Virus record (IMG/VR): IMGVR_UViG_3300027881_000536
Location: 1-64,000 of that record
Length of the DNA: 64,000 bases
Source of the DNA: a virus
Reading direction: 5' to 3' (one strand)
The translations under genes were made by a program, and so were the position numbers. The notes beneath the pieces are model-generated. The model worked only from the letters and a program-made list of their open reading frames with translations, did not search any database and was not told where the DNA came from. Below, piece after piece: positions 24,214 through 40,275 of this stretch (position 1 is its first letter; every line of letters starts with the position of its first letter).

Positions 24214-25617
24214 TTGGTTGATAATGAGACTCAGGATGTCATTGAAGATATTGATTGGGAGATGTCCAAGAGGGACTTCAAGTTCTTTTTCGAGGAAATA
24301 CTTGGTTGGCAGTTGGCTGACCATCATGCTAAGTGGTTTCATAATCTAAACACACACAACAGGTACTGTGTCAAAGCGGCTCGTGACCATGGGAAATCCA
24401 CTTTGTTTCTAGGTTATATCCTTTGGAAGGCAGTATTTTGCCCTAGAACAGATATTATGATATTCAGCCACAGCCTAGACCAGTCAATCCGCCATATGAG
24501 AGGTCTCAATGACCTGATAGAGAGTAGCCCTATGCTGGCTAAGATGAAGGATAATGATGCTTGGTCCAAAACATTCTTCGGTTTCACTAACGGTTCTCGA
24601 ATAAACGCTAAGTCAGTGGGTGGTGGTGTCCGTGGTGCTCACCCGGATATTGTCCTCCTAGACGACATATTGTGGGGTACTACAGAAACTGAATTGCAGA
24701 GAGTAGCATCTTGGTTCTATGAGGTAATGGTACCAACAGTGCATCATACCTCTCAGTTGTGTATAGTAGGTACACCATTCACTCCTACTGACCTGTATAC
24801 TGAACTTGAGGCTAGGGATAATTATCTAGTTGAAACTTACCCAGCAATTAACGAGAAGGGTGAGCCTCTTTGGCCATGGCGTTGGTCACTCGAGGCTCTT
24901 GATTCTCGAAGGATGGATATGCCAGCCATAGCCTTCACACGCGAGTATCTCTGTGAACCAATGGATGATATGTCCAGCCTATTCCCCTCTACTATTGTCA
25001 ATGCCTGTAAAGACCCGTATCTCAATATCATAGATAGAAAGGACCCCGATAGTGATGACCAGTATTTTATCGGTTGGGACCCAGCCATATCTTCTGACCG
25101 GCAGGCTGACTATACTGTCATGCTAGTGTTACGAAGACCTGCAGATAACCCTGAATTACTGGAGTTAGTACATGTCGTGAGACGAAAGGGTATGGATTTC
25201 CGTACTCAGATTTTTGAGATTACCAGGCTTAACAGTAGATTCCGACCTGATGTGATAGAACTTGAGGCTAACCATTTCCAGCGAGTCTTTGCTACAGAAC
25301 TAAGAGCAGATACTGACCTTCCTATCAAGACATTCATCAGTACCAAGCAAAGAAGGGAGAGCCTTTTAATGGGATTAGTTCTACGCTTTGAACGCGAGCA
25401 GATGCGTCTGCCATGGGGTGACGAGAGGTCTCGGGACCTCATCAGCCAATTGGAGCACGAACTCATCATGTTTGGAATGAGCAGAGAAGGTAAGTTGGAG
25501 AGCATTGCTCGACATGATGACTTTGCTATAGCGCTTGCTTTGGCAGTTTGGGCAACTACTGAGTTCCGTGAGAGGATAATCGACTTGGATGACTTGATGG
25601 CGGGGTTGATAGATTGA
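24214..25617 (+). CDS. terL: Terminase large subunit
   Basis: Walker A AARDHGKST, Walker B DIVLLDD, coupling motif IVGTP, nuclease acidic residues IGWDPA / DYTV / HDDFAIALALA. Confidence 0.95.
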   Translation: MVDNETQDVIEDIDWEMSKRDFKFFFEEILGWQLADHHAKWFHNLNTHNRYCVKAARDHGKSTLFLGYILWKAVFCPRTDIMIFSHSLDQSIRHMRGLNDLIESSPMLAKMKDNDAWSKTFFGFTNGSRINAKSVGGGVRGAHPDIVLLDDILWGTTETELQRVASWFYEVMVPTVHHTSQLCIVGTPFTPTDLYTELEARDNYLVETYPAINEKGEPLWPWRWSLEALDSRRMDMPAIAFTREYLCEPMDDMSSLFPSTIVNACKDPYLNIIDRKDPDSDDQYFIGWDPAISSDRQADYTVMLVLRRPADNPELLELVHVVRRKGMDFRTQIFEITRLNSRFRPDVIELEANHFQRVFATELRADTDLPIKTFISTKQRRESLLMGLVLRFEREQMRLPWGDERSRDLISQLEHELIMFGMSREGKLESIARHDDFAIALALAVWATTEFRERIIDLDDLMAGLID

Positions 25618-27059
25618 CTTGGGGTAGTATGCTAATTGGTGACGATTATGATGCTGAAACTGACGAGCCTGATGCTCATAAGGCTTGGGTTATCAAGCAA
25701 CTCATGCAACATCCTTTGTTCAAAACCAATCAGATAGCCGCCCCACAGTTTGGGGCTGCTCCTCCTACACCTAAAACGGGTGAGGGTAAGTTAACTCCTA
25801 TTCAACCGCCAGCCGGAAATCCCAAGGAAGAGGAAGAGAAACGCAAGAAACTGATGCAACTCAGTGACGATAAAGTAGTAGATGGGTGGTTCGAGGACCA
25901 GTTTGGGAAGTCTGCTTCTGAACTCATCAAAGACCTTCGTATGAAAAGGAGAGTACACAAGCAGTTTTCCGGGGATATTGACCAATTGATAGACGCTGTA
26001 AGAAAGGCTAAGGAAGCAGAGATTGAATCTGTACTGGATAATTTACAGTGGGCTTCGGAACATTTGGATGCTATCAGGGGTTTAGGTATAACTGACCGAG
26101 ATTTGAAAGCATTGAGAAAGTACGGTACAAACAGAGAGATATCACTCAAACAAGCATGTATCCAATGGGGTAATGCTAACAATGTTATCAAGAGATTATC
26201 CCAAATAGAGGGAGAGTGGGATAATGAGCAAAGGGATTTATGGGTAGAGTCTGTGAGTAAGAGAAAAGAGTCTAAGGGAATGTGGACGACTACATTGCAT
26301 CAAGTGGATAGTCTTAACAAGTCAGAGTCTGCATATTTGAATGCCGCAGTAGATATTTTAGGTCACAAGGGGTCTATGGATTCTAGAACTCTTTTGGAGA
26401 ACATGTCCTATATGGATGGTAGAAATAAGTCATTCTCGGTACAGAAATTGAGCGCTTTACTCAAGACCTATGGGCTTGAATACAACATCATTAAACATCG
26501 TGATAGATGGGAGTTACTACCAACAGACTCTTCTGATATCATCAAAGACCCTTGGGCATATGCTGCAGGGTTTCTGGATGCTGATGGTTATATCACCATA
26601 TCTAAGAGAGGAGAGCCTAGAGCAGGGATAATAGCCACAGGTCAGCGAGGGAAGGCTCATTGCGAACAGATGCACGATTTACTGGGTTGTGGAGTCTTAC
26701 AATTAGACTTGAAAGTACATAAGACCAGTAAGAAGAGTCAGCACCGGTTGCAGTTCTATAGTGCTGATGACCTAAGGAGACTTCTACAAGGTACTAAACC
26801 TCATCTAAGACTCAAGAAAAAGCAAGCAGAGAGTGTTCTAGAATTATTGAATTTACGAGGTCGTAATGGTGATATGATTACCAAGCGGAGAGATGAGTTG
26901 TTCAAGATAGTCAAGTGGGAAAACTGGCATGATGTCAAGGGTGATGAACTACTTGAAGAGTGGAATGTTGATGAACAAGAGGTCCTCTCATGGGGTAGGA
27001 GTGACCCCGAGGTCATCAGGCTTGTTGACGATATGAGTAAATTGGTAGGTGGTATCTGA
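25614..27059 (+). CDS. Fusion protein with C-terminal single-motif LAGLIDADG endonuclease domain
   Basis: WAYAAGFLDADGYITI, downstream LGCG, RLQF, PHLRLKKKQAE; ~310-aa unrelated N-terminal part. Confidence 0.85.
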   Translation: MTWGSMLIGDDYDAETDEPDAHKAWVIKQLMQHPLFKTNQIAAPQFGAAPPTPKTGEGKLTPIQPPAGNPKEEEEKRKKLMQLSDDKVVDGWFEDQFGKSASELIKDLRMKRRVHKQFSGDIDQLIDAVRKAKEAEIESVLDNLQWASEHLDAIRGLGITDRDLKALRKYGTNREISLKQACIQWGNANNVIKRLSQIEGEWDNEQRDLWVESVSKRKESKGMWTTTLHQVDSLNKSESAYLNAAVDILGHKGSMDSRTLLENMSYMDGRNKSFSVQKLSALLKTYGLEYNIIKHRDRWELLPTDSSDIIKDPWAYAAGFLDADGYITISKRGEPRAGIIATGQRGKAHCEQMHDLLGCGVLQLDLKVHKTSKKSQHRLQFYSADDLRRLLQGTKPHLRLKKKQAESVLELLNLRGRNGDMITKRRDELFKIVKWENWHDVKGDELLEEWNVDEQEVLSWGRSDPEVIRLVDDMSKLVGGI

Positions 27060-29035
27060 TGGCTGGTGAAGACAATAAAGGTGTGGTCAGTAGGTTCATT
27101 GATAGGATAACCGGCAACTACCGCAGGAAGACTACACCTGAACCCATAATGCCGCTTTGGAAGGCGGGCATACAGGAGCCTGTACTAGTCCAGGGTGTGA
27201 GCATACCAGCCCTCTACGCCACAGTGCAGGAGAGCATCATACTCAGAACTACAATCAATACCCTCTGTCAGGAGATATTCAGGAGAGGTCACTATTGGAA
27301 GAAGAAGTTTCACATGAAGTGCTCTCAATGTGAGGAGGAGTATCAACATGATACTGTATCTGAGTGCAGAATGTGTGGAGGGGGTGATTTCCAGTCCCCA
27401 GACGCAGACCAGATATTGTACCCCCGATGGTTTGTCAAACAGAGAAATGGAATGGACCAATCTTTCACTGATGTGTTGAGAGAGGTCGAATGGGACTTGG
27501 ACATTGTCGATGACGGATTCATCGTCCTCATTAAGGAGTATTTCCTCGACCCCGATTCTGGTAAGATTGAGTTTTTCAGAGTTAAGGAAATGATGCGTGG
27601 TGACCCCACTTTCATGAGGATTGTAGCAGATAAGAGAGGGACCAGAGGAGGTAGATATCTCATTTGCCCAGTTCATAGAGATAAGACCTATCCCTTTTCA
27701 AATGAAGACAAAAAGTGTGATATCTGCAATTTAGATTTACAGGATGTTCAGTTCATCAATACTGCCGGTTCAGGAAAGACTCAGTACTATATTGAGGGAG
27801 AAATTGTTCATGTTTCAAAGTATAGCCCTTCTAAACTGTATGGTCGTAGCCCAGTAGCCACAATGTGGAGACAGGCTATGACTCTTACAGCCATGGACAA
27901 TTACATGTATCTGGCTTATCAGAAGCGTAGGATTCCAAGAGGTGTCCTGTCTATCACCACTGATAATATCCAATCTACTGCAGCATTCTGGAAAGGTGCT
28001 GAGGAAAAGATGGAGCGTGACCCCAATTATATCCCCAAGGTGGGTGTGGAGTCTGCTACAGGAAGAGGTCGTGTCGAGTTTGTCAGATTCATGGACACTC
28101 TTGATGAGATGCAATATGGTGCAGTTCGTGATGAACTACGCATGCGTATAGCAGCATTCTATGGAGTCTCAAACATCTTCATGATGGACTCTGGTAAGGG
28201 TGGGGGTCTCAACAACGAAGGTCTGCAAATTCTAGTGACCAACAGGGCTGTAGAGTTTGGACAGAAATTATACTCTCGTGATATCTTCCCAAGGCTCTTT
28301 TCTGAGATGGGTATCACAGATTGGGAGATGACATTATATCCGAATGAGGAGGAGGATGAAGTCACTCGACTCAGAAGGGATGAACAGGAAGTCAATATCG
28401 CTCAGAGGATGGCTCAACTCGGATTCCAACCTGAACTTACTGAGGATGCAGGTAGAGATATCAGATTTGTCTACAAGAAACCAGACCCGCAGGAAGTGGC
28501 TGCTCAACAACAAGCAGCAATGCAGCAAGGTGGAGGTGGAGAGGCGCCCCCACCAGACGCAGGAGGAGGCGGTCCACCACCTGGTATGATGCCACCTCAA
28601 GGTGGTGGTGCTATGCCTCCTGGTGGTGCTATGCCTCCACCACAGATGCACCCAGCAGCAGGTGCAGGTCCAATGGTAGTTCCACCAGCAGGTGGGCCTC
28701 CGGCAGGTGGACCTCCAGCAGGTGCTCCTATGCCCCCTCGAGGAGGAGCGCAGCATACATTCCATCCAGGTGATGCTCGTAGAATGCCCATGATGACTAG
28801 GAAAAGCCTGGGAGCAGGTTCAGATTCTGAAAGTCAAGGCTTGAGACATGGTAAAGTGCCAGGGGTGAAAAACATAAGTGCTCCATCTGGAACCCCATCT
28901 GGTGCTACAACCACTAATCAACGAGGGTCCAAGAAGACATCAATGGAGGAGGCTTTAGATGCAATACAGGATGCTAAGGAGTCTGCGGCTAACCCTCAGG
29001 GAGACAAGAAGAAGAAAGGTGGACTCCCACGATAG
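27059..29035 (+). CDS. Portal protein with Zn-ribbon insertions and Pro/Gly-rich C-tail
   Basis: Position after terL; GDPTFMRIV, YSPSKLYGRSPV, IPRGVL, IAAFYGVSNIFM portal-like motifs; CSQC/CRMC and CPVH/CDIC. Confidence 0.9.
   Translation: MAGEDNKGVVSRFIDRITGNYRRKTTPEPIMPLWKAGIQEPVLVQGVSIPALYATVQESIILRTTINTLCQEIFRRGHYWKKKFHMKCSQCEEEYQHDTVSECRMCGGGDFQSPDADQILYPRWFVKQRNGMDQSFTDVLREVEWDLDIVDDGFIVLIKEYFLDPDSGKIEFFRVKEMMRGDPTFMRIVADKRGTRGGRYLICPVHRDKTYPFSNEDKKCDICNLDLQDVQFINTAGSGKTQYYIEGEIVHVSKYSPSKLYGRSPVATMWRQAMTLTAMDNYMYLAYQKRRIPRGVLSITTDNIQSTAAFWKGAEEKMERDPNYIPKVGVESATGRGRVEFVRFMDTLDEMQYGAVRDELRMRIAAFYGVSNIFMMDSGKGGGLNNEGLQILVTNRAVEFGQKLYSRDIFPRLFSEMGITDWEMTLYPNEEEDEVTRLRRDEQEVNIAQRMAQLGFQPELTEDAGRDIRFVYKKPDPQEVAAQQQAAMQQGGGGEAPPPDAGGGGPPPGMMPPQGGGAMPPGGAMPPPQMHPAAGAGPMVVPPAGGPPAGGPPAGAPMPPRGGAQHTFHPGDARRMPMMTRKSLGAGSDSESQGLRHGKVPGVKNISAPSGTPSGATTTNQRGSKKTSMEEALDAIQDAKESAANPQGDKKKKGGLPR
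28603..28638 (+). repeat. 18-bp coding tandem repeat x2 (GGAMPP)
   Basis: TGGTGGTGCTATGCCTCC twice. Confidence 0.9.
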
Positions 29036-29065
29036 ATTGAAGTGTAGAGGGGGTATCGGATAGCC

Positions 29066-29419
29066 ATGACTGAGCCGATTATCAAGTTGGACCCTATGGT
29101 CAGAAAATTGGAAACTACGATGGCAGAGTTCAAAATGGCTCTGAGAAATGATGACCTAGTGTCTGCTCAACAACTACTTCGTGCGCTTAGTCAGACAAGT
29201 GATTATCTGGCAGAGGATGTGACTTCAATTTACAAGAGCAATACAGAAGCAGACACTACTTTGGGTGTCAATGACATCTATGCTGGTGGTACTCCTGTGA
29301 TGGAGTTCAAGGACCAAGGTTCTATCATCAAAGGGGACCGCCCTCTAGGATATATTGGCCCTGATGGAATTCAGAGCAATTGGCAACCACAATATGGATT
29401 CGGTCAGAGGGTTGACTGA
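29066..29419 (+). CDS. Small head-module protein (scaffold/core-like)
   Basis: 117 aa, helical N-half; PIIK|L, SIYK|S, SIIK|G. Confidence 0.7.
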   Translation: MTEPIIKLDPMVRKLETTMAEFKMALRNDDLVSAQQLLRALSQTSDYLAEDVTSIYKSNTEADTTLGVNDIYAGGTPVMEFKDQGSIIKGDRPLGYIGPDGIQSNWQPQYGFGQRVD

Positions 29420-29778
29420 TGGCAGACGATGTCACTAACTTGGTAGATGCTCTCATCACTAAGATGGAGCGCATGGATGGTGACATTGGTGTTTTACAAG
29501 ACCAGAATCTAGAACTCAAAAAGATGATTTCTAATCCTAGTGCACTTCTACGGAAGGCTGGATATGTTAAGACATCTACTCCTGCTACTGAGGATGTATG
29601 GGGAGACCCTCTTCGTGGTGAAAGAAATGAAGTTATTGAGAAGGCTGCTGTTATGGTAGATGGGATTATGGTAGAACCACCTACTAATAACCAACAGTGG
29701 CATGATATGGGTTGGGAAGAAATTCACGCTATGGCTGAAACAGCCGCAGTAGCAGAAGGAAGGCCGGTGGACCAATGA
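29419..29778 (+). CDS. Small acidic coiled-coil head-module protein
   Basis: 119 aa; LITK|M, VIEK|A; overlapping start/stop. Confidence 0.7.
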   Translation: MADDVTNLVDALITKMERMDGDIGVLQDQNLELKKMISNPSALLRKAGYVKTSTPATEDVWGDPLRGERNEVIEKAAVMVDGIMVEPPTNNQQWHDMGWEEIHAMAETAAVAEGRPVDQ

Positions 29779-30503
29779 AGCCAATGCAGGTAGAAGCAGG
29801 GCAACATGCCCCAGATGTAGATGAACTAGTAGAGAAAGCAGGTAGTATGATGGAGAAGTTACAGATGGATAACTCTCAGATTCGTAATATCACTGGAGTC
29901 GAAGAGGCTCCAATGAACCATTATCATACTAATCAGTATATCGAGGATGCTCCTGAAGATGTTACTAACAAGGGAGCCACTAGTGAGAATGTATCTTTCA
30001 TAGATGCTAACCCTCACCAGTCTGGCTCTACTCTAAATGCTCATGAGAACCCCTCAGGTGGAGACCCACACCCTCCGTCTTCCTATACTCATTCCAGTGT
30101 AGGTAAACCTCCTTCTGACCTTAAGAAAGAGATTCAGATTATTCTCAAGAAGGCTTGCCCCTCTTGTGGCACTGAATGCAGTGGTGGCCTTTGCAAAAAT
30201 GTATCTTGTAGTGTCACCAAGGCGGGCGACCCCTTAGCGGCTTTGGCTGCTCTTGGTGGTGGCGGAAAAGGTGGCCCCCCAATGGGTGGCCCAGATGATG
30301 GTGGTGGACTCCCTGATGACATGCCTCCGGGGGACGATGAACCTTCTGACCCTGAAGGGCTTGCCGCTAAGATAAGTGACCTAGTGGATAAACTCAAAGA
30401 ATTGGCTGCTCCTGGTGGAGATGAGGGGCCACCAATGGGTGACGATATGGGTGGTGGGCCTCCAGGTGGCGGACCTCCGATGGGTGCACCTGCTGGCATG
30501 TGA
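29775..30503 (+). CDS. Acidic, Gly/Pro-rich head-module protein with small Cys cluster
   Basis: LVEK|A, IILKK|A, CPSC...C...C..C, SVTK|A, GGPPMG repeats. Confidence 0.75.
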   Translation: MKPMQVEAGQHAPDVDELVEKAGSMMEKLQMDNSQIRNITGVEEAPMNHYHTNQYIEDAPEDVTNKGATSENVSFIDANPHQSGSTLNAHENPSGGDPHPPSSYTHSSVGKPPSDLKKEIQIILKKACPSCGTECSGGLCKNVSCSVTKAGDPLAALAALGGGGKGGPPMGGPDDGGGLPDDMPPGDDEPSDPEGLAAKISDLVDKLKELAAPGGDEGPPMGDDMGGGPPGGGPPMGAPAGM

Positions 30504-30521: not shown

Positions 30522-33500
30522 GTGCGTGAAGGCCCTGAGGACTTTCTCCTAAGTAGCAAAGCACGCTATCAAAACTCCCAAGACGAAGAAGACGCTGCAG
30601 AACTTTTCTTCGCTATACGGAATATGCTCAATCATGGGCTAGATGTCATCTGGGATGACACTATCACTAAGGCAATGGAAGACCTTGAAAAGCCTGGTGA
30701 GACTAGTAAGCGCTCTATGGAAGCGGCTGTTACAAGGACTAAAACTAAGCCCGAGGCTAAACCTCTACCAAAGGTGGAGCCTAGAACAACAGAAGAAACT
30801 AAGCCTTTACCTCCTACACCATTAGAAATTCAGGGCCCTATTCGGTATGTTGACCGATATAGAATAGCCCCTTGGTTGTTCAATCAACAGAAAAGGACTC
30901 TACCTGGAGGTGTCACCGAAGATGGTACTCCTGAAAAAGGGCAGGACATAGCGTTTATGGAAAGCCTCATGATAGGTGGTAGAGAGGCTACTAAACCTGA
31001 TAGTCCTGTCATCCCCAGTAGGTATTTCGATATCCAATCTCATATGTACTACATTGACAATTATGGGAATAGAGTCAATTTCACAATGAAGGATTTAGAC
31101 CCTAGCATTTGGCTTGAAGGGCCTGAAGGTTGGGGTGGTGATGAAAAGAGTGTGAAAGAATGGGAAGAAGACCCTTTGAAATGGCTGAGAGACCATGCAG
31201 ATGAGAATGTACCAACGCAGTCCGGGGGTAATAAGGGTATCAAGTTTAGAGATTACTTGCGCCCATTAATTGGCCGACCTGAGTATACTGGTGAAAGAAG
31301 ATTCGAGCATGGTGATAACACTACTGATTTTAGGAGTAAGAAGGGGAGAGAACTAATTCCTCATAAATCACTTAATTCATTAGACCCTATACAAGCACTG
31401 CATTTCTTTAGTGATTCACCAGTTCTTGAGAATTCGGCTAGCAAATTCCATTCAGAGTTTCTTAACCCGGATAGTCCTCATCATGTGCGTTCAGTAGAAG
31501 CAGCCGTCAAGAAGAAGAATGACTCTTTGAAAGAGATGATGGGAGTTAATTGGGGGCAAAAAGGGCATGAAACTCATCACCAAGATAGAAGGGCGATTAA
31601 CAGTCAGGGAGAGATAGCCGGCGATGATGTATCCCCGTCCTATACCTTTACTAGGATGTATGAGGATTACTATAGTGATTGGCTTAGAAGGAATGGTTCT
31701 AGATTGAGAAAGGATATGAGTGACAAAGACAAGAGGATATTATTCTCACATTGGTATGATTTGGAATATGATATAGGACAAGGTCATGATGATTATATCG
31801 CTCAGAGACTTCTTCGTACCGATAAGAGAATGAGGAAACGCTACAAGCGTGCCGATGTGACGCTTGACCCAGAATTCCAACATAGAAGAGATGACGAATC
31901 TAGTCATCATCGTGTTGGTCTCATTCCTCAACTCTTAGGTTTGCAATTGGCTAGTCCTGAACATCGGATGTACGCTATTGCAGACCTGTTCTCTTACCTC
32001 AAACAGCATGAGGAAGGTGGCCATCATCCGATAGATGACCCTATTGAGGATAGAAAACAGGATGCTGCAGATAATGCTGGTGGGTTGAGGGTCGACGAAT
32101 TGATTGACCATATGTATTCGGCTCTAGGTAAGAACATGACGGCTATCGCCAATAATGTAATGGGTCACCCATTAGACCCTGAAGGGACTCATATACCACC
32201 GTACTTTGACAAGCACTCACGAGTTAAACAATCAATAATCAGAGAGGGTTTGGAACTAGCGCATTTGTCACCACTGTCTCCTGATTTCAAGAAGAAGAGA
32301 GGTAATAAGTCTGGTTATGATACTCCAGAAGGTGGTAGAACTAGTCAGAAGAGTATGGCTCAAATCATGAAAGTCCTTGATTTGCTTGATGAAGTAGGAG
32401 TACCAAAGGGGTGGAATATCGACAATCCTGACATCATGGAGGAATTTGATAGAGTAGTTCTTCCTTATCTTGATAACAAATTCAAGAATAGTGCTCGAGA
32501 TAGATTCGAGAGTTGGTTTCACACAGACCCTAAAGCCAAGTTGAGAGGGAGGGCTAGAGAATATCAATCAGCCATGGCTCATGATAATTGGTCTTTGGAA
32601 GCGAGAGTAGAAGGCGAGACATCGGAACCACATGAGATTACTGAGAATCATGACATGAGTCCTTCTTGGTTATGGCACCACAGTTTACCAAAGACTGGGT
32701 ATAATTTGTATGGGCCTGATATTGCTGAGATTCTCTATGGGGTTATCCCTTGTCTTGGTGAGAAGGTGAAAAATAGTGAGAAGATACTTTTCGATTCGAT
32801 GGGCACTCGCCCTCCTCATTTTGACAAAGAGAAGAGTAATGAGCATCCTGATAATTATGACTATGCAGAGTGGCTAAAGGGGATTGGTAATGGTCCAGCA
32901 CCAGAGACTTGGGATAATGACCCTAGTATACCATTCACAGAAAAAGGTGGTATGTCAGGTTTAGCCATGGAGATTGATGCCTATCTAAGAGGTGGTGAGT
33001 TGGGACCAATAATGGGAGAAGTCTACAAGAGATTCTACGGTGATTTACCCCTTAATCCTCACAAGGGTGATTTCGTAAGTAGACTCTTGAAAGGGCGCCT
33101 TGGGGAGGTTTATGGTGAACATGAAGAGGCTACAATGGCAGAAGACTCACCAGAGCGAGCCAGACAAATAGGTATGACAGAAATGAAAGATGTCACTGGT
33201 GAGAGTGCAGTTGGTGAGCGTTCTAGTGGGTATGGGGTTAGAGTGGCTGGACCTTCTGAAGTGACAAGGAGAAAGGAGGCTGACATAGCAGGGGCTCCAG
33301 ATACACTGCCGAAATCTATCGTAGAAAATTACCCCCTAGGTAGGCGACCTCTCAATGAGAGGATACTTAGGATGATGCTTCCTATTGCTGGTGCTAAAGA
33401 TACTTTCTTCTTGAGAGAGGCATTACAAATGGGGCTTAGAGAGCCAGCGTTACAATTGCTAGAAGCGTTACGAAAGAAATGGGGCGGGGCTGCTGTACCG

Positions 33501-36500
33501 AAAAATGAAATGGAAGACCGCTTACTTACTATGGATGAGGCTGTTGATAGAAGGACAGATGAACTAGGGCAGATGGTTGACAGGGCGACTATTCTAAGAG
33601 GTTCATCAGGAGGCATAGTTTTCCCTTATCATAATCGTGGCCTTATAATGCCTGCAGATACTCTGAGGATGATAGAACTAGGGCAGATGTATCCTGGCTT
33701 GGTCAACCAGAGTAACCATGACGGCTATAGGGATGAGGGGGCCAGTAGAGGTTCTGCAATTCTAGACCAACTTGGTCGTAGTGGAGTTACAGAGAACAGA
33801 GGGCTGACTGCTGCTATGTTGGGATTACTTTGCTCAGCATTGATGGGTGGTGGCTCTGCTGAACCTTGGTCATTTGAACATAGAGGGAATGAGAAGGCTT
33901 TGGTTGTAGACCACCCTGGACAATGGGGAGATGAATTCATGGGAAATTTGGCTAATTGGATTCGTAAGCAGCCACATCCACACATTGAGGGAGAGGAAAT
34001 TGGAAACCAATTAGGTGGTTGGGAGAATGAAGATTGGCGTCATCGTGTGGCTGACAAGAGATTCATCTACCCTGTCAATAAGCACATGAATGATGAGGGC
34101 ATAGAGGAATATAGATTACCTTTCAAGAAGACCGGTGGTAAGCATGGTCTGCAATTCAAGGTTCCTGATTTAGATGTATGCAGTCCTTATCCCGAGAAAG
34201 CATTAGGAGATGGATTGAGTTTTTCGCACCCATTCAGTATACAAAACCAATTGCAGGATATAGTCGGCTCCAGAGGTATCTATCCTTCTTGGACTACACC
34301 TAGAGATGGAGAACAGCATATCCAATCCATGCCTAAGCCGTGGATGGTGATTCCCAAAGAGAGTATCATAAATTACAATGGGCAAGACTATGTTGTTGCT
34401 GAACACCCTTCTGTAATCAAGGACGAGTTTAGTAACTATCTATCTGATTATGATAAGAGTCAAGGTAACAAACAACATAAGGACCTGATACTAGGACTTC
34501 GGAGAGAGGCTAAAAATATGGCTCCCAAGATGGAGGGGGGATGGGAGAAGAGTGAGAAGCAACGAGGATGGATGATGACCATGGAAATGTTGACTAGGGC
34601 TGTGGGGACAGGTCACCAAGCGGCTAAGGCCGTTTTACCTTTCATAATGGCCCACCTTGCTTCTAATCATACCCCTGATATAGAACAAGGAAATCAAAGT
34701 GAGTCTCAATGGAAGTTGGATGATTTCACGGAGAAGTATCTAAGGCAGCACAAAGGAGATACTTCTGAGGAGGCTCAAAGGAAATATGCTACATTATGCC
34801 ACTTGTACGAATTGGCTTGGAATTATGCAGACCGTCATGGCCCTGTTAAAAGAGGCTTATTCCTTGAGCAATTAGAGAAGCAAGGTCATAACTTCACTGA
34901 TGAACAGAAGGAAGGATTCCTAAGTCCTGATTTGAATGTGAACAGTGTGCAAGGTCATAAGGAATTCGTCATGCCCAAACATGGGATGGACACAAACCAT
35001 CCTTTCTATGAGGCCTTCCACGAAGGTATAGGGCAGAATGTAGAAGGATTGAACCTTCTGCGTGCTTTTACCAACAAACGATATGGAGATGATGAACGAT
35101 ATGAAGGATTGATGGATGCAATTGAAGATATCATGAATCAACATTTCTCTTGGGGTTCTGAATCGGTTGGTCAACCTGGCTTGGCTCCAGAGGACTGGAA
35201 AACGAAAAGCGGTCAACCTATGTCCTTCAAATTAAAGAAATTATTCGAGACTTCACAACAGGACCATGACAAAGCCATGTATCAAGCAGACCATTATGAG
35301 AAAGGTCTGGATGGAGGTGATGACCCTCTTTGGTATATTCCAGAGTCTGACGCTCCATTTTCAGATGAGCATCCTGAGCATAGGACGAAGAATGTGGAGA
35401 GGGCTAAAAGGGGTAGTAGGGCTCAGATGTCCTTGAATACAAAAAGCATCTTGAATACTGTAGGTGATGAGCACGATTCAGATTATAGTATAGAGGACCA
35501 TAGAACACTCAATCAATTCATAGTTGCTATGGGGCCTGTGATTAAGGATTTGGTAAGTGAACTAGATAAGGTTAATTATCTGCCAGAACACGCTTCACAC
35601 CAACGATTTGATGAGAATGACCCCCAAGATGTAATGAGAGAATATTGTAGACTTTTGTTCCTTCGGGGTCGTATCAATCCCAAGTATCAACCTAGGCCTT
35701 GGTCATATCGCTCTTCTGGTATGAAACAGATAGGTGATGATAGCGAGCCTGGTGTGATAAATCTTAATAGAACACGACTCTCGAATCTATCTAGTGTCCA
35801 TGCACATGATTCATTCCACCAGTCAGAAGTTATGCCTTTCACTATGGATGTCGAGAATCATATACCTGACCTTCATAGTAGAGGGTCTCCTACTCCCCCT
35901 TGGGATATTGGTGTAGGTGGTGAGTACCAGAACAATTCTCAAGACCCTACAAGAGACCAACGCTTGGGCCATGAGGAGATGCAAGAGGGAAAGAGAGATA
36001 CAGCCATTGCTACTCCCTATAGGACTGTCCACTCTAATATTCTTAATTCAGCATTCGGTCAGAGACTTGCTATTACTGGGGATAACTCTAACATTGGAGC
36101 GTCACTCCAGTATACGGAGGATGATGAGGTGAGGTATTCGTTGGATGTTTTGACTGATGTAGACTTGCTCCTGAAAGAGGAAGAAAGGGATAAGGGTAAA
36201 CCTGCTCCTGTTAAAGCCATGCATCGTATCTTTGACCTTGATGATTTAGAGTATCTCAGAGGGTTTTCTGATGATTGGGTAGTTACTTCATGGCCTGCTG
36301 GTACAAGAGTTATTGTAGAGAAGAAAGGTAAGAAGGTTAAAGCCCGAGATGCAGAAGGTAAATCTGTTACTCTACCCAATGAAATTAAGACCGGTGTTAA
36401 AGATGCTCATGACAAGGATTTCTTAATAGATGCCATTTGGGATGAAGACAGATTATGTATTGTGGATATCTTGGAATGTGAAGATGATGATTTGTGTAAT

Positions 36501-37709
36501 AAGCCCACCAAAGATAGAGTCAGGCATCTAAGGGCTCACTTTGAGTCTACTGAGAAGGTTAGTACTCCAGCACCAGTAAATACGAAGAGAGTTGATGGGC
36601 AGGGTCTCAAGAGAGCAGTCAAGGACCTCATGAAGGAACCTGATGTAAAGCAGGTCCTATTGAGAGATGCTGAGTCCACTTACATGCGTGGAGAAATGAG
36701 GCACCCAAAATGGGTATTACTTACGCCAGACCATCAAATTGATGTTTTAATTCTATCTTCCTCTGGGGTTGATAACCATCTGATTGGAGTTGGGCCATTG
36801 TATGAACAGGATGCTAAGGCAATTGGTAACAGGGCGGTTCGTTATGATGGGGATTATTACATGGATGTAGGTACAGTCTCGCGTTCAGGTTTGGAAGAGG
36901 GGATGTACATAACTGTGAAGACATCAGGTATTTCTCATTCGGCTAGAAGGAATTATTCAGTTTACCGATTAAATGCACCTCGTTATCTGAGAGAATCTGA
37001 GAGTGGAGCGACTGACAGTGTAGAGACTTTGGAGATACTGCGTCACAGGCAGGAAGGTAATGTACCTCACAAGGTTCGGATTAAGAAAGGGAGAATCCAC
37101 ATAGATGTACCTACAGGACATGTAGTCTATGAAACAGAAGTGTCTGGGAATGCATTTCTTTTGAAAGATGTAGATTCCCCAGATGATTATACTCTAAGAG
37201 TGACTCAAAGCCAAATGGAATATTGGTCACCGCTGGCTGCAGTTCTTTTGCGTTCTGAAAGAGAGGGAGAGAAGGAAGAGATAGAACCAGAGCCTGCGGC
37301 TAATCATGATAAGAAGCCAAAGAAGGTGCTACCGAAAAGAGATGAGTTGCTCAAAGACCCTGAAGTCGTCAAGACTGTAGTTCTAGCATTAGAGACAGTA
37401 GATGGTATGCTCAAAGAGAAGGTTACTTGGACTGGTCCTAAGGCTCTAGGTATTGATTATGGTACTCCCATAGAATCACCTCATGGGCCTACTGATATAA
37501 CTGAACCATATGATATGCCTGACCATGACCCTGCTGCTAGACAGTCTGAACCTAAGGCATGTTGGTGTGGTGCTGAAAAGGGAGAAGAATGTAAACAAGG
37601 CATGGGTCACGATATGGAAGATTGCCCCAAGGCTAGACCACCAGATAGTGATGAAAAGCCAGAACATCTCACCGTTTCTCAGGATTCTCGCGATGTTTCT
37701 TCCGTGTGA
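30522..37709 (+). CDS. Giant 2395-aa protein with C-terminal degenerate ATP-dependent DNA ligase (NTase+OB) fold
   Basis: ~36200-37030: WVVTSWPAGTRV (motif I), FLIDAI (III), IVDIL (IIIa), KQVLLR (IV), STYMRG...KWVLL (V), then OB-like strands; catalytic Lys replaced by Trp. Confidence 0.85.
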   Translation: MREGPEDFLLSSKARYQNSQDEEDAAELFFAIRNMLNHGLDVIWDDTITKAMEDLEKPGETSKRSMEAAVTRTKTKPEAKPLPKVEPRTTEETKPLPPTPLEIQGPIRYVDRYRIAPWLFNQQKRTLPGGVTEDGTPEKGQDIAFMESLMIGGREATKPDSPVIPSRYFDIQSHMYYIDNYGNRVNFTMKDLDPSIWLEGPEGWGGDEKSVKEWEEDPLKWLRDHADENVPTQSGGNKGIKFRDYLRPLIGRPEYTGERRFEHGDNTTDFRSKKGRELIPHKSLNSLDPIQALHFFSDSPVLENSASKFHSEFLNPDSPHHVRSVEAAVKKKNDSLKEMMGVNWGQKGHETHHQDRRAINSQGEIAGDDVSPSYTFTRMYEDYYSDWLRRNGSRLRKDMSDKDKRILFSHWYDLEYDIGQGHDDYIAQRLLRTDKRMRKRYKRADVTLDPEFQHRRDDESSHHRVGLIPQLLGLQLASPEHRMYAIADLFSYLKQHEEGGHHPIDDPIEDRKQDAADNAGGLRVDELIDHMYSALGKNMTAIANNVMGHPLDPEGTHIPPYFDKHSRVKQSIIREGLELAHLSPLSPDFKKKRGNKSGYDTPEGGRTSQKSMAQIMKVLDLLDEVGVPKGWNIDNPDIMEEFDRVVLPYLDNKFKNSARDRFESWFHTDPKAKLRGRAREYQSAMAHDNWSLEARVEGETSEPHEITENHDMSPSWLWHHSLPKTGYNLYGPDIAEILYGVIPCLGEKVKNSEKILFDSMGTRPPHFDKEKSNEHPDNYDYAEWLKGIGNGPAPETWDNDPSIPFTEKGGMSGLAMEIDAYLRGGELGPIMGEVYKRFYGDLPLNPHKGDFVSRLLKGRLGEVYGEHEEATMAEDSPERARQIGMTEMKDVTGESAVGERSSGYGVRVAGPSEVTRRKEADIAGAPDTLPKSIVENYPLGRRPLNERILRMMLPIAGAKDTFFLREALQMGLREPALQLLEALRKKWGGAAVPKNEMEDRLLTMDEAVDRRTDELGQMVDRATILRGSSGGIVFPYHNRGLIMPADTLRMIELGQMYPGLVNQSNHDGYRDEGASRGSAILDQLGRSGVTENRGLTAAMLGLLCSALMGGGSAEPWSFEHRGNEKALVVDHPGQWGDEFMGNLANWIRKQPHPHIEGEEIGNQLGGWENEDWRHRVADKRFIYPVNKHMNDEGIEEYRLPFKKTGGKHGLQFKVPDLDVCSPYPEKALGDGLSFSHPFSIQNQLQDIVGSRGIYPSWTTPRDGEQHIQSMPKPWMVIPKESIINYNGQDYVVAEHPSVIKDEFSNYLSDYDKSQGNKQHKDLILGLRREAKNMAPKMEGGWEKSEKQRGWMMTMEMLTRAVGTGHQAAKAVLPFIMAHLASNHTPDIEQGNQSESQWKLDDFTEKYLRQHKGDTSEEAQRKYATLCHLYELAWNYADRHGPVKRGLFLEQLEKQGHNFTDEQKEGFLSPDLNVNSVQGHKEFVMPKHGMDTNHPFYEAFHEGIGQNVEGLNLLRAFTNKRYGDDERYEGLMDAIEDIMNQHFSWGSESVGQPGLAPEDWKTKSGQPMSFKLKKLFETSQQDHDKAMYQADHYEKGLDGGDDPLWYIPESDAPFSDEHPEHRTKNVERAKRGSRAQMSLNTKSILNTVGDEHDSDYSIEDHRTLNQFIVAMGPVIKDLVSELDKVNYLPEHASHQRFDENDPQDVMREYCRLLFLRGRINPKYQPRPWSYRSSGMKQIGDDSEPGVINLNRTRLSNLSSVHAHDSFHQSEVMPFTMDVENHIPDLHSRGSPTPPWDIGVGGEYQNNSQDPTRDQRLGHEEMQEGKRDTAIATPYRTVHSNILNSAFGQRLAITGDNSNIGASLQYTEDDEVRYSLDVLTDVDLLLKEEERDKGKPAPVKAMHRIFDLDDLEYLRGFSDDWVVTSWPAGTRVIVEKKGKKVKARDAEGKSVTLPNEIKTGVKDAHDKDFLIDAIWDEDRLCIVDILECEDDDLCNKPTKDRVRHLRAHFESTEKVSTPAPVNTKRVDGQGLKRAVKDLMKEPDVKQVLLRDAESTYMRGEMRHPKWVLLTPDHQIDVLILSSSGVDNHLIGVGPLYEQDAKAIGNRAVRYDGDYYMDVGTVSRSGLEEGMYITVKTSGISHSARRNYSVYRLNAPRYLRESESGATDSVETLEILRHRQEGNVPHKVRIKKGRIHIDVPTGHVVYETEVSGNAFLLKDVDSPDDYTLRVTQSQMEYWSPLAAVLLRSEREGEKEEIEPEPAANHDKKPKKVLPKRDELLKDPEVVKTVVLALETVDGMLKEKVTWTGPKALGIDYGTPIESPHGPTDITEPYDMPDHDPAARQSEPKACWCGAEKGEECKQGMGHDMEDCPKARPPDSDEKPEHLTVSQDSRDVSSV

Positions 37710-37741: not shown

Positions 37742-39130
37742 ATGCTGATGATGGAAGCACCGCTAGACAGCCCTATTCTCATCAAAGGTAGGACTGGAGA
37801 CCTAGTTGTTGCCGGCTATGCTTCAGTTGAAATGGTCGATAAACAAGGGGACCTGATAACTAAGGGCGCACTACGAGAAGCATTCAAGAAATTCATGGGT
37901 TCTCCAGGCTTTAGGAATGTGCAACTGGCTCATTCAAATATCCAAGTTGGTTCTGTCATTCCTGAGTATTCGGATAGTAGTGGGCGTGTCTGGAAGTCTG
38001 AAGTAGACGATACTGGTATGTTCGTAGTTATCCAACTCCGTGATGATATCGAAAAGGCTCGTGAGGTAGCCGCAGAAATCCGAAAGGGTAACCTCAAATC
38101 ATTTTCAATAGGTGGGCAGGCTTTCGAGCGTGTCAACAAGAGTAACTCCGAGAGAGGAGATTACCGAGAAATACGCAGGATGGAACTGCATGAAGTTACC
38201 ATCTGCGAGAAGGGCATCAATCCAGAGGCCCAATTCCGAATCCTGAAAGAGGATAAAATTGAAATAAATAAAGGTGAAAATATGACAGATGCAATGACAG
38301 AACTACAGGATGTCTTGGAAAGGTTATCCAAGAGGCTAGACGATGTTGACGAGGCTGAGTCTGCCCTGAAGGGCAAAGACGATGCTGAGAAAGGCAAAGA
38401 CGATGCTGAAAAGGAAGACAAAGAAAAGGCTGATGTAGCAAAGGACAATGAAGACAAAGAATCTTCTGAGAAGTCTGAGAAAACGGAAAAGATGGACGAT
38501 GTGATTACCACAGAGTATCTTGACTGGCTAGAATCGACTGTGAAGTCTGCTGGGTATGACCCATCGGCTGCTCGCGGTCACTTTGATAACACAGAGGGAG
38601 TCGAAAAGGCTTACCTCCAAGAGGGTGCTCATGGTTACGACCATCGTGGACAGGGTAGTATCGAAGGCGCTGGTGAGGATGACTCCGGTAAGCGACCCAA
38701 GATGAATATGGGTGCAGGACCGAGTGGTAACAAAACCGTCATCAAGACAGATGAGTTCATCCATCCGGAAATGGTTTCCTCTGCACAAGTAGAGGAAGCA
38801 TATCAGGTCTACAAGGCCGCTGCTCTTGAGCAGCAGTTCAAGTCTGACCTAGGCAACAACTTCTCAATAAGATTACAAAAAGAAATACAGAATAGTCAGA
38901 ATGAGACCGAGAGGTCATCATTCGATGCGCGTGGGCCTCTACAAGACCTACAGAAAGCAGTTCTCGCTCTAAGCGGTAGGATTGAGGATGTTTCCACCAC
39001 ACCTGGTGAAGATTTCCAGAAATCTGCAGATGCTTCGAGAGTAACTATTCCTGAGACAACCGAGATGGCTGCCTTGTCGTGGGACGATGTCCACCGACTA
39101 GCACACTCGGCTCTAAGGGGTGATAACTGA
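37742..39130 (+). CDS. Prohead protease (HK97-type) fused to scaffold-like C-terminal region
   Basis: VVAGYASVEMVDKQGD, catalytic-type QLAH and KSFSIGG, ELHEVTICEKGINPEA; acidic coiled-coil C-half. Confidence 0.92.
   Translation: MLMMEAPLDSPILIKGRTGDLVVAGYASVEMVDKQGDLITKGALREAFKKFMGSPGFRNVQLAHSNIQVGSVIPEYSDSSGRVWKSEVDDTGMFVVIQLRDDIEKAREVAAEIRKGNLKSFSIGGQAFERVNKSNSERGDYREIRRMELHEVTICEKGINPEAQFRILKEDKIEINKGENMTDAMTELQDVLERLSKRLDDVDEAESALKGKDDAEKGKDDAEKEDKEKADVAKDNEDKESSEKSEKTEKMDDVITTEYLDWLESTVKSAGYDPSAARGHFDNTEGVEKAYLQEGAHGYDHRGQGSIEGAGEDDSGKRPKMNMGAGPSGNKTVIKTDEFIHPEMVSSAQVEEAYQVYKAAALEQQFKSDLGNNFSIRLQKEIQNSQNETERSSFDARGPLQDLQKAVLALSGRIEDVSTTPGEDFQKSADASRVTIPETTEMAALSWDDVHRLAHSALRGDN
38372..38413 (+). 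repeat. 21-bp coding tandem repeat x2 (GKDDAEK)
   Basis: GGCAAAGACGATGCTGAGAAA / GGCAAAGACGATGCTGAAAAG. Confidence 0.85.
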
Positions 39131-40275
39131 TGGCGCGTAATTATGTAAGGACAATACAGGACATGGAGCGATACTACTACGGTGGTACCGCATTGACCGG
39201 GTACACCTACAGCAGTGGAGATATACTCAAGGCGGATGCACCGCTTCTGAGCACCACGGCTGGTACCTACCAGGCAATCTATGGCAGGAAGGTTTGGTCG
39301 CAGTTGAATCAAGAGTTCAACGCGTTCAGCATCCTACCAAAGAAGCCGTGGGAGCGAAGTGGATGGCGCATCATAACTGCCAAGCCTTCGTTCGATGTTG
39401 GTGGAGGTCTGGCTGAGAACGCCACACTGCCCGACACCACGAAGCCTGACTTCCTGCATGTGGCTGCAAAGCCCAAGACCATTGGCCACTCGTTCGACCT
39501 GAGCGAAGTGTCCATGTTCCTTTCCGATAAGGATGATGGTCTCGGAGATGTGCGCCAAGTGCTCAAGGAAGAGATGGGGAAGCACCACGCTGACCACATC
39601 AACAGGATGCTATTGGTAGATGTCGAGACCCCAGCGGGTAACGACTTCGAGTCACTGGACCGACTAACCTCGGACCCAGACTCGATGACAACTGGTACAG
39701 GCCATGTGAGTGCTACTACAGACCACGACCTATACTCTATCACACGCGATGGGAGTTCCGACTTCCACAGTGCTGAGGTAGATGTGTCGGCTGCGGCTAA
39801 CACTAACAGGAACCTAAGCCTGAATCAACTGGACGGATTGTTCCAGCAGATTTGGGTTCGAGGTGGTAACCCCAAGGTCATGCTGACTGGGTACGATACC
39901 CTGATGCGTGTGCAACAACTACTGCAGAGCCAGCAGAGATTCATGGAATCGAAGAGGGTCACCCCCACCTACAACGGTGTGAAGGGTGTGCCTGGTATCG
40001 AGGCCGGATTCATTGTGGCTACCTACAACGGCGTGCCGCTGATTCCGTCCAAGGATGTAGTAACTGACACGAGTGGAATCTCGAGGATTTACTACTTTGA
40101 TACGGACTACTTGTGGTTCCAGACTGCTATACCGACCCAATATTTCGAGTCGGGTATCGAAACCGGCGACCCGTTCGCCATCAACAGACTAGGCCAAGAG
40201 GGGCTCTACCGAACCATGGGTGAGGTATGGGACTCTTTCTTCGGCGCAGGAGGTTCTATCCGTGACCTTAAGTGA
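39130..40275 (+). CDS. Major capsid protein (HK97 fold)
   Basis: Directly after protease; 381 aa; VWSQLNQEFNAFSILPKKPW, VATYNGVPLIPSKD, IYYFDTDYL; C-ending codon bias of a highly expressed gene. Confidence 0.92.
   Translation: MARNYVRTIQDMERYYYGGTALTGYTYSSGDILKADAPLLSTTAGTYQAIYGRKVWSQLNQEFNAFSILPKKPWERSGWRIITAKPSFDVGGGLAENATLPDTTKPDFLHVAAKPKTIGHSFDLSEVSMFLSDKDDGLGDVRQVLKEEMGKHHADHINRMLLVDVETPAGNDFESLDRLTSDPDSMTTGTGHVSATTDHDLYSITRDGSSDFHSAEVDVSAAANTNRNLSLNQLDGLFQQIWVRGGNPKVMLTGYDTLMRVQQLLQSQQRFMESKRVTPTYNGVKGVPGIEAGFIVATYNGVPLIPSKDVVTDTSGISRIYYFDTDYLWFQTAIPTQYFESGIETGDPFAINRLGQEGLYRTMGEVWDSFFGAGGSIRDLK

What the first reader, a model, noticed from the sequence alone, without database searches (positions are those of the whole stretch)
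30522..37709. Catalytically dead DNA-ligase fold at the end of a 2395-aa protein between portal and protease
Seen: residues encoded at ~36200-37030 align by eye with ligase motifs in order, but motif I KxDGxR reads W-P-A-G-T-R (Trp at 36291-36293), EGxxxK reads KQVLLR and WxKxK reads WVLL. An OB-like region follows. About 1900 aa upstream are unrecognisable. Known: the motif I Lys forms the ligase-AMP intermediate and is essential. Inference: an exapted DNA-clamping domain (binding genome ends or nicks, or positioning DNA in the head) on a giant head/ejection protein.
Basis: partly seen in the sequence, partly recalled or inferred. Interest (0 to 1): 0.72.

Follow-up and report, generated by a model that had tools for sequence, protein, structure and literature searches.

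The report
Dead ligase on giant magrovirus protein
A very large protein encoded in the head-gene block of an abundant marine archaeal virus ends in a well-conserved copy of a DNA-ligase fold that has lost every residue needed to join DNA. A sister group of these viruses keeps an intact-looking ligase at the same gene position, so this is an enzyme turned into a non-enzymatic binding module.

Summary
ORF 30522-37709 (2395 aa) lies between portal and prohead protease. Residues ~1891-2178 model confidently (pLDDT 86.6) as ligase NTase+OB (3gde Z 19.9; Foldseek E 1e-13).

All adenylation motifs are replaced:
- KxDGxR reads WPAGTR.
- LDGE reads IDAI.
- EGxxxK reads KQVLLR.
- WxKxK reads WVLLT.

The motif I Lys is absent from all 121 giant homologs first found. 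A clade of 700-900-aa proteins with fully canonical motifs occupies the same portal-to-protease slot in other magrovirus lineages. The tree puts all 100 non-catalytic rows on one side of a 100%-supported branch, which is compatible with a single loss.

The dead module is the best-conserved part of the protein. Its dN is 0.07-0.15 against 0.5-0.9 in the middle, with dS saturated, so it is not a pseudogene. The upstream ~1880 aa matches no known family or fold.

Packaging into the head and DNA binding are inferred only. Lost motif Ia and an acidic net charge argue against a canonical ligase-style DNA clamp.

Philosof 2017 reported a "ligase in the structural module" but not its inactivation or the giant fusion. 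The scan index holds notes on this genome only.

The parts
30522..37709 (+). Whole gene: 2395-aa giant protein (GTG start)
   Evidence: 199 homologs found among 1317-4192-aa candidates, listed hits 1379-2572 aa; 224 clusters at 50% identity; 592 IMG/VR loci.
30522..30692 (+). Conserved N-terminal three-helix bundle (res 1-57), ending in a ...LK(EK)-type motif in many homologs
   Evidence: Conservation 0.44 against about 0.2 in the middle; alignment; AF2 pLDDT 85-89. Only generic helical matches, Z <= 6.6.
30693..30884 (+). K/P/E/T-rich linker predicted disordered (res 58-121)
   Evidence: pLDDT 30-41; low alignment occupancy.
31029..33131 (+). Large, mostly alpha-helical domain (res ~170-870) with no recognisable fold
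   Evidence: AF2 pLDDT mostly 75-95. No Foldseek hit at E <= 0.001 in PDB or BFVD.
33132..36161 (+). Fast-evolving, length-variable, acidic middle region (res ~871-1880); no conserved transmembrane segment
   Evidence: For the whole stretch res 61-1850, dN is 0.53-0.88 against 0.07-0.15 in the ligase module.
36192..36731 (+). Nucleotidyltransferase (adenylation)-like domain, non-catalytic (res ~1891-2070)
   Evidence: AF2 plus VIA-align: model residues 7-186 align to ligase NTase domains at Z 17-19. A profile of the family hits archaeal ligases 9df9 and 3rr5 at E about 0.002-0.01.
36291..36308 (+). Motif I remnant WPAGTR (Trp1924 replaces the adenylated Lys)
   Evidence: The column is W68/Y33/I16/M2/H1/S1 in 121 giant homologs.
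36420..36473 (+). Motif III and IIIa remnants FLIDAIWD ... CIVDIL (ribose-binding Glu becomes Ile; adenine-stacking Phe becomes Val)
36648..36725 (+). Motif IV and V remnants KQVLLRDA ... GEMRHPKWVLLT. LLRDA and GExRHPKW are near-invariant in the family
36735..37055 (+). OB-fold domain (res ~2072-2178)
   Evidence: 3gde aligns over model residues 4-294, spanning NTase and OB, Z 19.9.
37062..37286 (+). Extra small beta domain plus long helix after the OB (res ~2181-2255)
   Evidence: AF2 strands 300-334 and helices 338-370 of the model. Only weak matches, Z 5.4.
37311..37493 (+). Conserved C-terminal tail: KKPKKV ... LKEKxTWTGPKxLGIDYxTPxESPxGPT ... LPDxD
   Evidence: Invariant or near-invariant columns. 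Present in all non-catalytic clades, including the ~1100-aa one.
37560..37625 (+). CWCG...C...C cysteine cluster, found only in close relatives
24214..30503 (+). Upstream context: TerL (24214-25617), LAGLIDADG/HNH nuclease (25614-27059), portal (27059-29035), three small ORFs (29066-29419, 29419-29778, 29775-30503)
   Evidence: The order is conserved in the related loci that have enough flank.
37742..40275 (+). Downstream context: prohead protease (37742-39130) and major capsid protein (39130-40275)

Best explanation
The gene encodes a ~270-kDa protein of the head-morphogenesis block of a magrovirus, a tailed virus of marine group II (Poseidoniales) archaea. Its only strongly conserved enzyme-like part is a C-terminal NTase+OB module descended from an ATP-dependent DNA ligase. 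A sister magrovirus clade keeps that ligase, as a 700-900-aa protein with canonical motifs, at the same position between portal and protease. In the lineage leading to this virus the module lost the adenylated Lys, the ribose-binding Glu, the adenine-stacking Phe, the motif IV Glu/Gly/Lys and both motif V lysines. The tree is compatible with one loss event. The module was then kept under strong purifying selection while the rest of the protein expanded and diverged quickly. It therefore works as a non-catalytic binding module with a remodelled former nucleotide pocket. Shown here: the fold, the residue losses, the selection, the synteny and the compatibility with a single loss. Inferred only: the gene sits where tailed phages encode minor head, MuF-type or polyvalent proteins that are packaged and injected, so the protein is most likely loaded into the capsid through its conserved N- and C-terminal elements. 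The ligase-derived module would then hold viral nucleic acid (an end, a nick or a modified terminus) or a nucleotide, in the virion or on entry.
For: Fold. Sequence homology to ligases: E 0.0016; PF01068 in 5 of 20 members, best E 8.6e-7; blastp 7e-26 to the active ortholog. Loss of catalytic residues across the family. Active orthologs in the same slot: (PF01068 about 1e-29). One-sided split on the tree (100% SH-aLRT). Constraint: the C-terminal 500 aa is the best-conserved part; dN is 0.07-0.15 against 0.53-0.88 in the middle, with dS saturated. Conserved synteny TerL - nuclease - portal - 3 small ORFs - giant - protease - MCP. Independent assemblies. Non-catalytic NTase folds already exist as binding modules: snurportin m3G-cap domain Z 16.9 and chain 8wpf_B of the monkeypox polymerase complex Z 10.3 in the same search.
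Against: There is no direct evidence that the protein is in virions, because the virus is uncultured and no proteome exists. No MuF domain was found in the genome, and the strict AWxxLK terminal tag carried by other proteins of this genome is absent. DNA binding is untested. Motif Ia is lost and the domain is net acidic. dS is saturated, so dN/dS values are rough. The root of the tree is assumed to lie on the active clade, and the tree tool flagged the meeting of its two longest branches as possible long-branch attraction.
Confidence: 0.55

Rival explanations
1. The module is still an enzyme with a new chemistry or a relocated nucleophile. The dead-clade-specific invariants on the old pocket strands (Arg2048-Asp2049, Glu2058, Arg2060, His2061, Lys2063, Trp2064) would form a new active site, for example a phosphotransferase or phosphoesterase acting on nucleic-acid ends.
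For: Many residues are invariant only in the non-catalytic clade, and they lie on the strands that build the ligase nucleotide pocket. Conservation is higher than a purely structural role would need.
Against: Every residue known to bind ATP/AMP or metal in this superfamily is replaced. K1898 and K2063 are also present in the active clade, so they are not new nucleophiles. No known enzyme family has this constellation.
Confidence: 0.12
2. The module is a protein-protein or small-ligand adaptor rather than a nucleic-acid binder. Comparable cases are the ligase-like fold in the monkeypox polymerase complex and the cap pocket of snurportin. It would dock the giant protein to portal, capsid or protease during assembly, or capture a host nucleotide signal after injection.
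For: Net acidic charge and loss of motif Ia. An aromatic residue (W or Y in 101 of 121) replaces the Lys, which would suit base stacking. Snurportin is a strong structural match (Z 16.9) and PF21974 gives weak hits (best E 2.8e-5 in the family).
Against: The PF21974 hits are below the curated threshold. The OB domain, which binds DNA in ligases, is retained and conserved. No partner has been identified.
Confidence: 0.25
3. The gene is a decaying ligase pseudogene or a mis-assembled chimeric ORF.
For: It lacks all catalytic residues, and the Pfam score is below threshold in the window protein (16.1 bits against 26.2).
Against: The reading frame is open in hundreds of lineages. The ligase-like part is the most conserved segment, with dN several-fold lower than the rest and saturated dS. 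Identical structure without indels appears in independent samples.
Confidence: 0.01

Closest known systems
Magrovirus 'structural-module ATP-dependent DNA ligase' (Philosof et al. 2017, PMC5434244)
   Same: This is the same gene family and the same unexpected position inside the head-gene block. The paper already calls it a distinct ligase family.
   Different: The paper treats it as a ligase. Here only one clade (700-900 aa) keeps the catalytic motifs. In the other clades, including this virus, the module has lost them and is the C-terminal part of 1100-2500-aa proteins. None of the magrovirus papers read here mentions this.
Archaeal and eukaryotic ATP-dependent DNA ligases (e.g. A. fulgidus 3gde, P. 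furiosus 2cfm, human Lig1 1x9n, LigD 1vs0)
   Same: NTase+OB architecture, order of motifs I-V, and the upstream 'KPMLA'-like strand.
   Different: No N-terminal DNA-binding domain was detected. All adenylation residues and motif Ia are replaced. Extra beta domain, helix and conserved tail follow the OB. The module is fused behind ~1880 aa of unknown sequence.
Snurportin-1 m3G-cap-binding domain (1xk5; Pfam PF21974)
   Same: An NTase fold of the ligase/capping-enzyme superfamily with Z 16.9 over 161 residues. From general knowledge, not tested here: it lacks the catalytic Lys and serves as a pure ligand-binding module.
   Different: It is eukaryotic, has no OB partner of this type, and its Pfam hits here are below threshold. 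Cap-binding residues were not compared.
Ligase-like chain of the monkeypox virus polymerase complex F8-A22-E4-H5 (8wpf_B)
   Same: A viral protein with a ligase-like NTase fold (Z 10.3). From general knowledge: it is non-catalytic and serves as a structural part of a machine.
   Different: It belongs to a replisome, not a head module, and there is no sequence relationship.
Packaged and injected phage proteins encoded next to portal: SPP1 gp7 / Mu F and 'polyvalent proteins' (Iyer et al. 2017, PMC5512222); T4 gp2 and Mu N genome-end binders; N4 virion RNA polymerase
   Same: Gene position after portal, very large size, and fast-evolving body with conserved termini. That paper describes head packaging and injection of such proteins, and notes a paucity of polyvalent proteins in archaea.
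   Different: No MuF domain or other polyvalent-associated domain was detected. A ligase-derived module is not among the domains found in that paper's text. Virion location is unproven here.

Membership tests
ATP-dependent DNA ligase (covalent nucleotidyltransferase superfamily) | Nucleotidyltransferase (adenylation) fold | tested here: met
   AF2 pLDDT 86.6; 2hiv Z 18.7 (172 aa, rmsd 2.4); 3l2p Z 18.8; Foldseek E about 1e-13.
ATP-dependent DNA ligase (covalent nucleotidyltransferase superfamily) | OB-fold domain directly after the NTase domain | tested here: met
   3gde aligns over 262 residues spanning both domains, Z 19.9.
ATP-dependent DNA ligase (covalent nucleotidyltransferase superfamily) | Motif I KxDGxR with the Lys that forms the enzyme-AMP adduct | tested here: not met
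   The window reads WPAGTR. The column holds no K in 121 giant homologs and K in only 3 of 100 non-catalytic tree rows, all in the ~1100-aa clade.
ATP-dependent DNA ligase (covalent nucleotidyltransferase superfamily) | Motifs III (Glu), IIIa (aromatic), IV (EGxxxK) and V (WxKxK) | tested here: not met
   IDAI, IVDIL, KQVLLR and WVLLT. The joint alignment with the active clade fixes the register.
ATP-dependent DNA ligase (covalent nucleotidyltransferase superfamily) | Pfam PF01068 at or above the gathering score | tested here: not met
   16.1 bits against a cut-off of 26.2 in the window genome. Some distant giant homologs carry precomputed PF01068 hits.
ATP-dependent DNA ligase (covalent nucleotidyltransferase superfamily) | Adenylation and nick-sealing activity | not testable with these tools
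   Needs biochemistry.
Magrovirus structural-module ligase family (Philosof 2017) | Encoded between portal and prohead protease/MCP of a magrovirus | tested here: met
   The magrovirus identity of the genome is taken from earlier notes of this scan. It fits the head-gene order, the second ligase-like gene and a probable clamp-loader ORF.
Magrovirus structural-module ligase family (Philosof 2017) | Sequence homology to the catalytically intact members | tested here: met
   blastp 7e-26 to L087:7992-10082; a common HMM recovers both; tree.
Snurportin-like non-catalytic NTase cap binders (PF21974) | Pfam PF21974 at or above the gathering score | tested here: not met
   14.2 bits against 27; best E in the family 2.8e-5.
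Snurportin-like non-catalytic NTase cap binders (PF21974) | Cap-stacking residues and m3G binding | not tested
   Only fold similarity was seen, Z 16.9.
MuF / SPP1 gp7 minor head proteins and phage polyvalent proteins | MuF domain (PF04233) or polyvalent-protein-associated domains | tested here: not met
   No PF04233 match in the genome at E <= 10; no Pfam or PHROG hit in the giant.
MuF / SPP1 gp7 minor head proteins and phage polyvalent proteins | Packaged in the head and delivered with the DNA | not testable with these tools
   The virus is uncultured; only gene position supports it.

The most novel reading that the evidence does not exclude
The remodelled pocket (aromatic-Pro at the old Lys, invariant Arg-Asp, Gly-Glu-x-Arg-His-Pro-Lys-Trp) specifically recognises a nucleic-acid terminus or a nucleotide. 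Examples would be a 5'-adenylated or otherwise modified genome end, or a host immune signalling nucleotide. The ~270-kDa protein would be injected with the DNA. It would then be an archaeal-virus counterpart of bacterial phage polyvalent or genome-end-protecting proteins, built from an ex-ligase. The sister clade would carry a true virion-delivered ligase.
Probability: 0.15. Interest if true: 0.8.

Novelty: new variant of a known kind. Interest (0 to 1): 0.55.

Why it matters
Magroviruses are among the most abundant archaeal viruses of the surface ocean, and almost none of their proteins have been studied experimentally. The published genome descriptions count this gene as an ATP-dependent ligase.

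In this genome neither ligase-like gene has the catalytic lysine. If that holds, the virus must depend on host ligase, and the replication autonomy inferred for it from its ligase genes is overstated.

The active, partial and dead series at one conserved head-module position is a clean natural experiment in enzyme-to-binder exaptation. It also gives paired constructs for biochemistry.

The giant, fast-evolving protein in the slot after portal may be the first candidate for an injected polyvalent-type protein in archaeal tailed viruses. Iyer et al. 2017 noted that such proteins are scarce in archaea.

Tried and rejected
- **Cultured-phage search.** tblastn of the C-terminal 545 aa against 50,697 phage records gave no match.
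- **Single-sequence PDB search.** It gave only a chance hit; the family profile was needed.
- **Whole-protein family scans.** Pfam and PHROGs gave only a sub-threshold snurportin hit. Scanning 20 homologs against Pfam added nothing recurrent upstream of the ligase module: one SAP hit and two weak Anti-TRAP hits.
- **ESM Atlas on residues 1-1880.** No usable hit. An earlier attempt failed on length.
- **AF2 of residues 1-1200 plus fold searches.** Foldseek on PDB and BFVD and VIA-align wide gave nothing significant. Only the N-terminal three-helix bundle matched, at Z <= 6.6. BFVD rows naming tape-measure or internal virion proteins have E >= 0.02 and are not evidence. The model exceeds 400 residues, so single domains were barely tested.
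- **Fusion hypothesis.** The idea was that the giant arose by fusing the 910-aa and 777-aa ORFs that precede the active ligase in the sister clade. blastp and hhalign found nothing.
- **LigD phosphoesterase idea.** The idea was that the C-terminal tail or the C-terminus of the active clade is a LigD phosphoesterase-like domain. Pfam found nothing even at E <= 10.
- **MuF domain.** No match in the genome.
- **Transmembrane segments.** The one hydrophobic window (residues 1095-1113) is not conserved.
- **AWxxLK terminal tag.** It is confirmed on about a dozen other ORFs of the genome, but the giant has no strict copy. The tail 'ALETVDGMLKEK' is only loosely similar.
- **Terminal repeats.** None were found at the contig ends.
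- **Expression.** No RNA holder is listed. One run guessed to be RNA holds three short contigs, which cannot be used as evidence.
Full report
**What is there.** The window is the first 64 kb of a 118,155-bp virus record rated 100% complete. ORF 30522-37709 on the + strand encodes 2395 aa from a GTG start. Homologs begin at the same MREGPEDF sequence.

The ORF sits in a classical head block:
- large terminase, 24214-25617 (phrog_38, 4e-57)
- LAGLIDADG/HNH nuclease, 25614-27059
- portal, 27059-29035 (phrog_18178, 9e-70)
- three small ORFs
- the giant ORF
- S78 prohead protease, 37742-39130
- major capsid protein, 39130-40275

Earlier notes of this scan call the genome a magrovirus. That fits the gene order and features Philosof et al. 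2017 describe: a LAGLIDADG nuclease and a ligase inside the structural module, plus a second ligase-like gene in a replication block.

**The fold.** I aligned residues 1885-2255 with 51 homologous slices from IMG/VR loci. AlphaFold2 gave a confident model, with mean pLDDT 86.6 and pTM 0.75.
- Foldseek against the PDB returns ATP-dependent DNA ligases at E about 1e-13.
- VIA-align gives A. fulgidus ligase 3gde at Z 19.9 over 262 residues spanning NTase and OB. Many other ligases score Z 15-19.
- The non-catalytic snurportin cap-binding domain scores Z 16.9. Chain 8wpf_B of the monkeypox polymerase complex scores Z 10.3.
- At sequence level, a profile of the family hits archaeal ligases at E 0.0016-0.01.
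- PF01068 is detected in 5 of 20 diverse homologs but stays below the cut-off in this protein, 16.1 against 26.2 bits.
- A small beta domain and a long helix follow the OB.

**The catalytic residues.** The decisive comparison is with close relatives that are still canonical. The HMMER search of 1.84 billion representatives found 224 clusters. Among them are 700-900-aa proteins with EKYDGxR, LDGE, EGVVIK and WIKWK, and PF01068 at about 1e-29.

A joint alignment of 57 such sequences with 52 from the giant family fixes the register:

| Motif | Active clade | This protein |
|---|---|---|
| I | K-Y-D-G-x-R | W-P-A-G-T-R |
| III | L-D-a-E | I-D-A-I |
| IIIa | v-F-D-I | I-V-D-I |
| IV | E-G-V-v-I-K | K-Q-V-L-L-R |
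| V | W-I-K-W-K | W-V-L-L-T |

The motif Ia region also differs. The Trp codon is TGG at 36291-36293.

In 121 giant homologs the Lys column is W68, Y33, I16, M2, H1, S1 and never K. In the wider set, K occurs only in the canonical clade and in a few members of a ~1100-aa clade that has lost motifs IV and V.

**Evolution.** The canonical proteins are not cellular ligases found by chance. About 500 IMG/VR loci encode them, on contigs up to about 94 kb, again between portal and protease/MCP. Portal is about 45% and MCP about 39% identical to the window's. The ~1100-aa clade sits in the same slot in viruses whose MCP is about 64% identical.

A maximum-likelihood tree of 120 NTase+OB sequences puts the 20 fully canonical rows and the 100 non-catalytic rows on opposite sides of one branch with 100% SH-aLRT support. 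With the root placed on the canonical clade, this is compatible with a single inactivation. The tool warns that the two longest branches meet there.

The giant gene and the order nuclease - portal - three small ORFs - giant - protease - MCP are conserved in every one of the 80 related loci that has enough flank.

**Constraint.** Along the protein, the C-terminal ~500 aa is by far the best conserved. Mean top-residue frequency is 0.43-0.69 there, against about 0.1-0.3 in the middle. The first ~50 aa are a second conserved island at 0.44.

Against four relatives with about 81% identity in the module, dN is 0.07-0.15 in the NTase, OB and third domain. It is 0.53-0.88 in residues 61-1850. Synonymous sites are saturated, so dN/dS is roughly 0.1 or less in the module.

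Contigs of runs X4, X5 and X6 (three different coded studies) carry the gene at 99% or higher identity with no indels. One contig spans the whole ligase-like module. The pseudogene and artefact readings are therefore excluded.

**The rest of the protein.** Residues 1-1880 hit nothing in Pfam, PHROGs or the ESM Atlas. An AF2 model of residues 1-1200 (pLDDT 66.5) shows these parts:
- a confident N-terminal three-helix bundle, residues 5-56
- a disordered K/P/E/T-rich linker, residues 58-121
- a large helical domain, residues ~170-870, with pLDDT mostly 75-95
- a poorly predicted region after that

Fold searches give nothing significant. The protein is acidic and has no conserved transmembrane segment.

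After the ligase module comes a tail with near-invariant motifs: KKPKKV, LKEKxTWTG, KGLGID, ESPxGPT, LPDxD. These motifs are shared by all non-catalytic clades, including the ~1100-aa one.

**What it most likely does.** Shown here: this is an ex-ligase module kept for a non-catalytic job. Residues invariant only in the dead clade are the aromatic-Pro at motif I, LLRDA, GExRHPKW, KDRxRHLR and PxPxNT. From the known architecture of this superfamily, several of these (the motif I, IV and V remnants) lie on the strands that form the nucleotide pocket. The pocket therefore looks remodelled, not merely abandoned.

Inferred only: the slot after portal is where tailed phages encode MuF/gp7-type and 'polyvalent' proteins that are packaged and injected (PMC5512222). 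A huge, fast-evolving body between conserved termini fits such a protein. I therefore rate a head-packaged protein whose ex-ligase module holds nucleic acid or a nucleotide as the best explanation, at 0.55.

A protein or small-ligand adaptor role (0.25) and a new enzymatic chemistry (0.12) remain open.

**What is known and what is new.** Philosof et al. [quoted passage not shown] Later magrovirus papers and ICTV profiles list only 'ATP-dependent DNA ligase'.

None of the papers I read mentions three points:
- Most lineages carry a version without the catalytic residues.
- That version is the C-terminus of a 1100-2500-aa protein.
- An intact version persists at the same locus in a sister clade.

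I therefore class this as a new variant of a known kind. The scan's own index shows only notes on this same genome, none on other DNA.

**Limits.** Virion location, ligand and processing are all untested. The tree root is assumed. dS is saturated. The N-terminal model is too large for sensitive domain-wise fold search.

Noticed in passing
G000:C1 ~94648-96036 (- strand), outside the window: A second ligase-like ORF (463 aa), next to a probable clamp-loader ORF with a P-loop (GPPGTGKT), reads ...IVSGPRRYAH... where motif I KxDGxR would be. PF01068 does not detect it at E <= 1. The virus therefore seems to encode no canonical ATP-dependent ligase at all.
   Followed up: partly
window 376, 1014, 1518, 2236, 2505, 4544, 5727, 5811, 22708, 22755, 24174, 41937: A short peptide L-[DE]-x-A-W-x-x-[LI]-K recurs at the N- or C-termini of about a dozen otherwise unrelated ORFs, including the 3038-aa ORF at 5784-14900. 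The giant studied here has only loosely similar ...LKEK motifs at about residue 60 and about residue 2298.
   Followed up: partly
window 5784-14900 and 51060-63998 (open at the window end): Two further giant ORFs (3038 aa and more than 4313 aa) lie on the same strand. Three proteins of over 2000 aa in one 118-kb viral genome is unusual.
   Followed up: no
L087:2038-7335 (sister-clade locus): In the clade with the intact head-slot ligase, two large ORFs (910 and 777 aa) lie between portal and ligase. They have no detectable similarity to the giant's N-terminal part. The portal-to-protease distance is about the same in both clades: 8.1 kb there (portal ORF end 2041 to protease ORF start 10125) against 8.7 kb here.
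   Followed up: partly
L161-L197, e.g. L184:7986-11450: An intermediate ~1100-aa clade has motifs IV and V lost and keeps a Lys at the motif I position only in some members. It has a His/Trp/Pro/Gly/Met-rich N-terminal half.
   Followed up: partly
window 37560-37625: A CWCG-x6-C-x11-C cysteine cluster near the C-terminus is present only in the closest relatives. It may be a small zinc knuckle.
   Followed up: no
window 29775-30503: The 242-aa ORF just upstream of the giant gives a sub-threshold treble-clef zinc-finger hit (PF14952, E 3e-5). It is syntenic in all related loci with enough flank.
   Followed up: no
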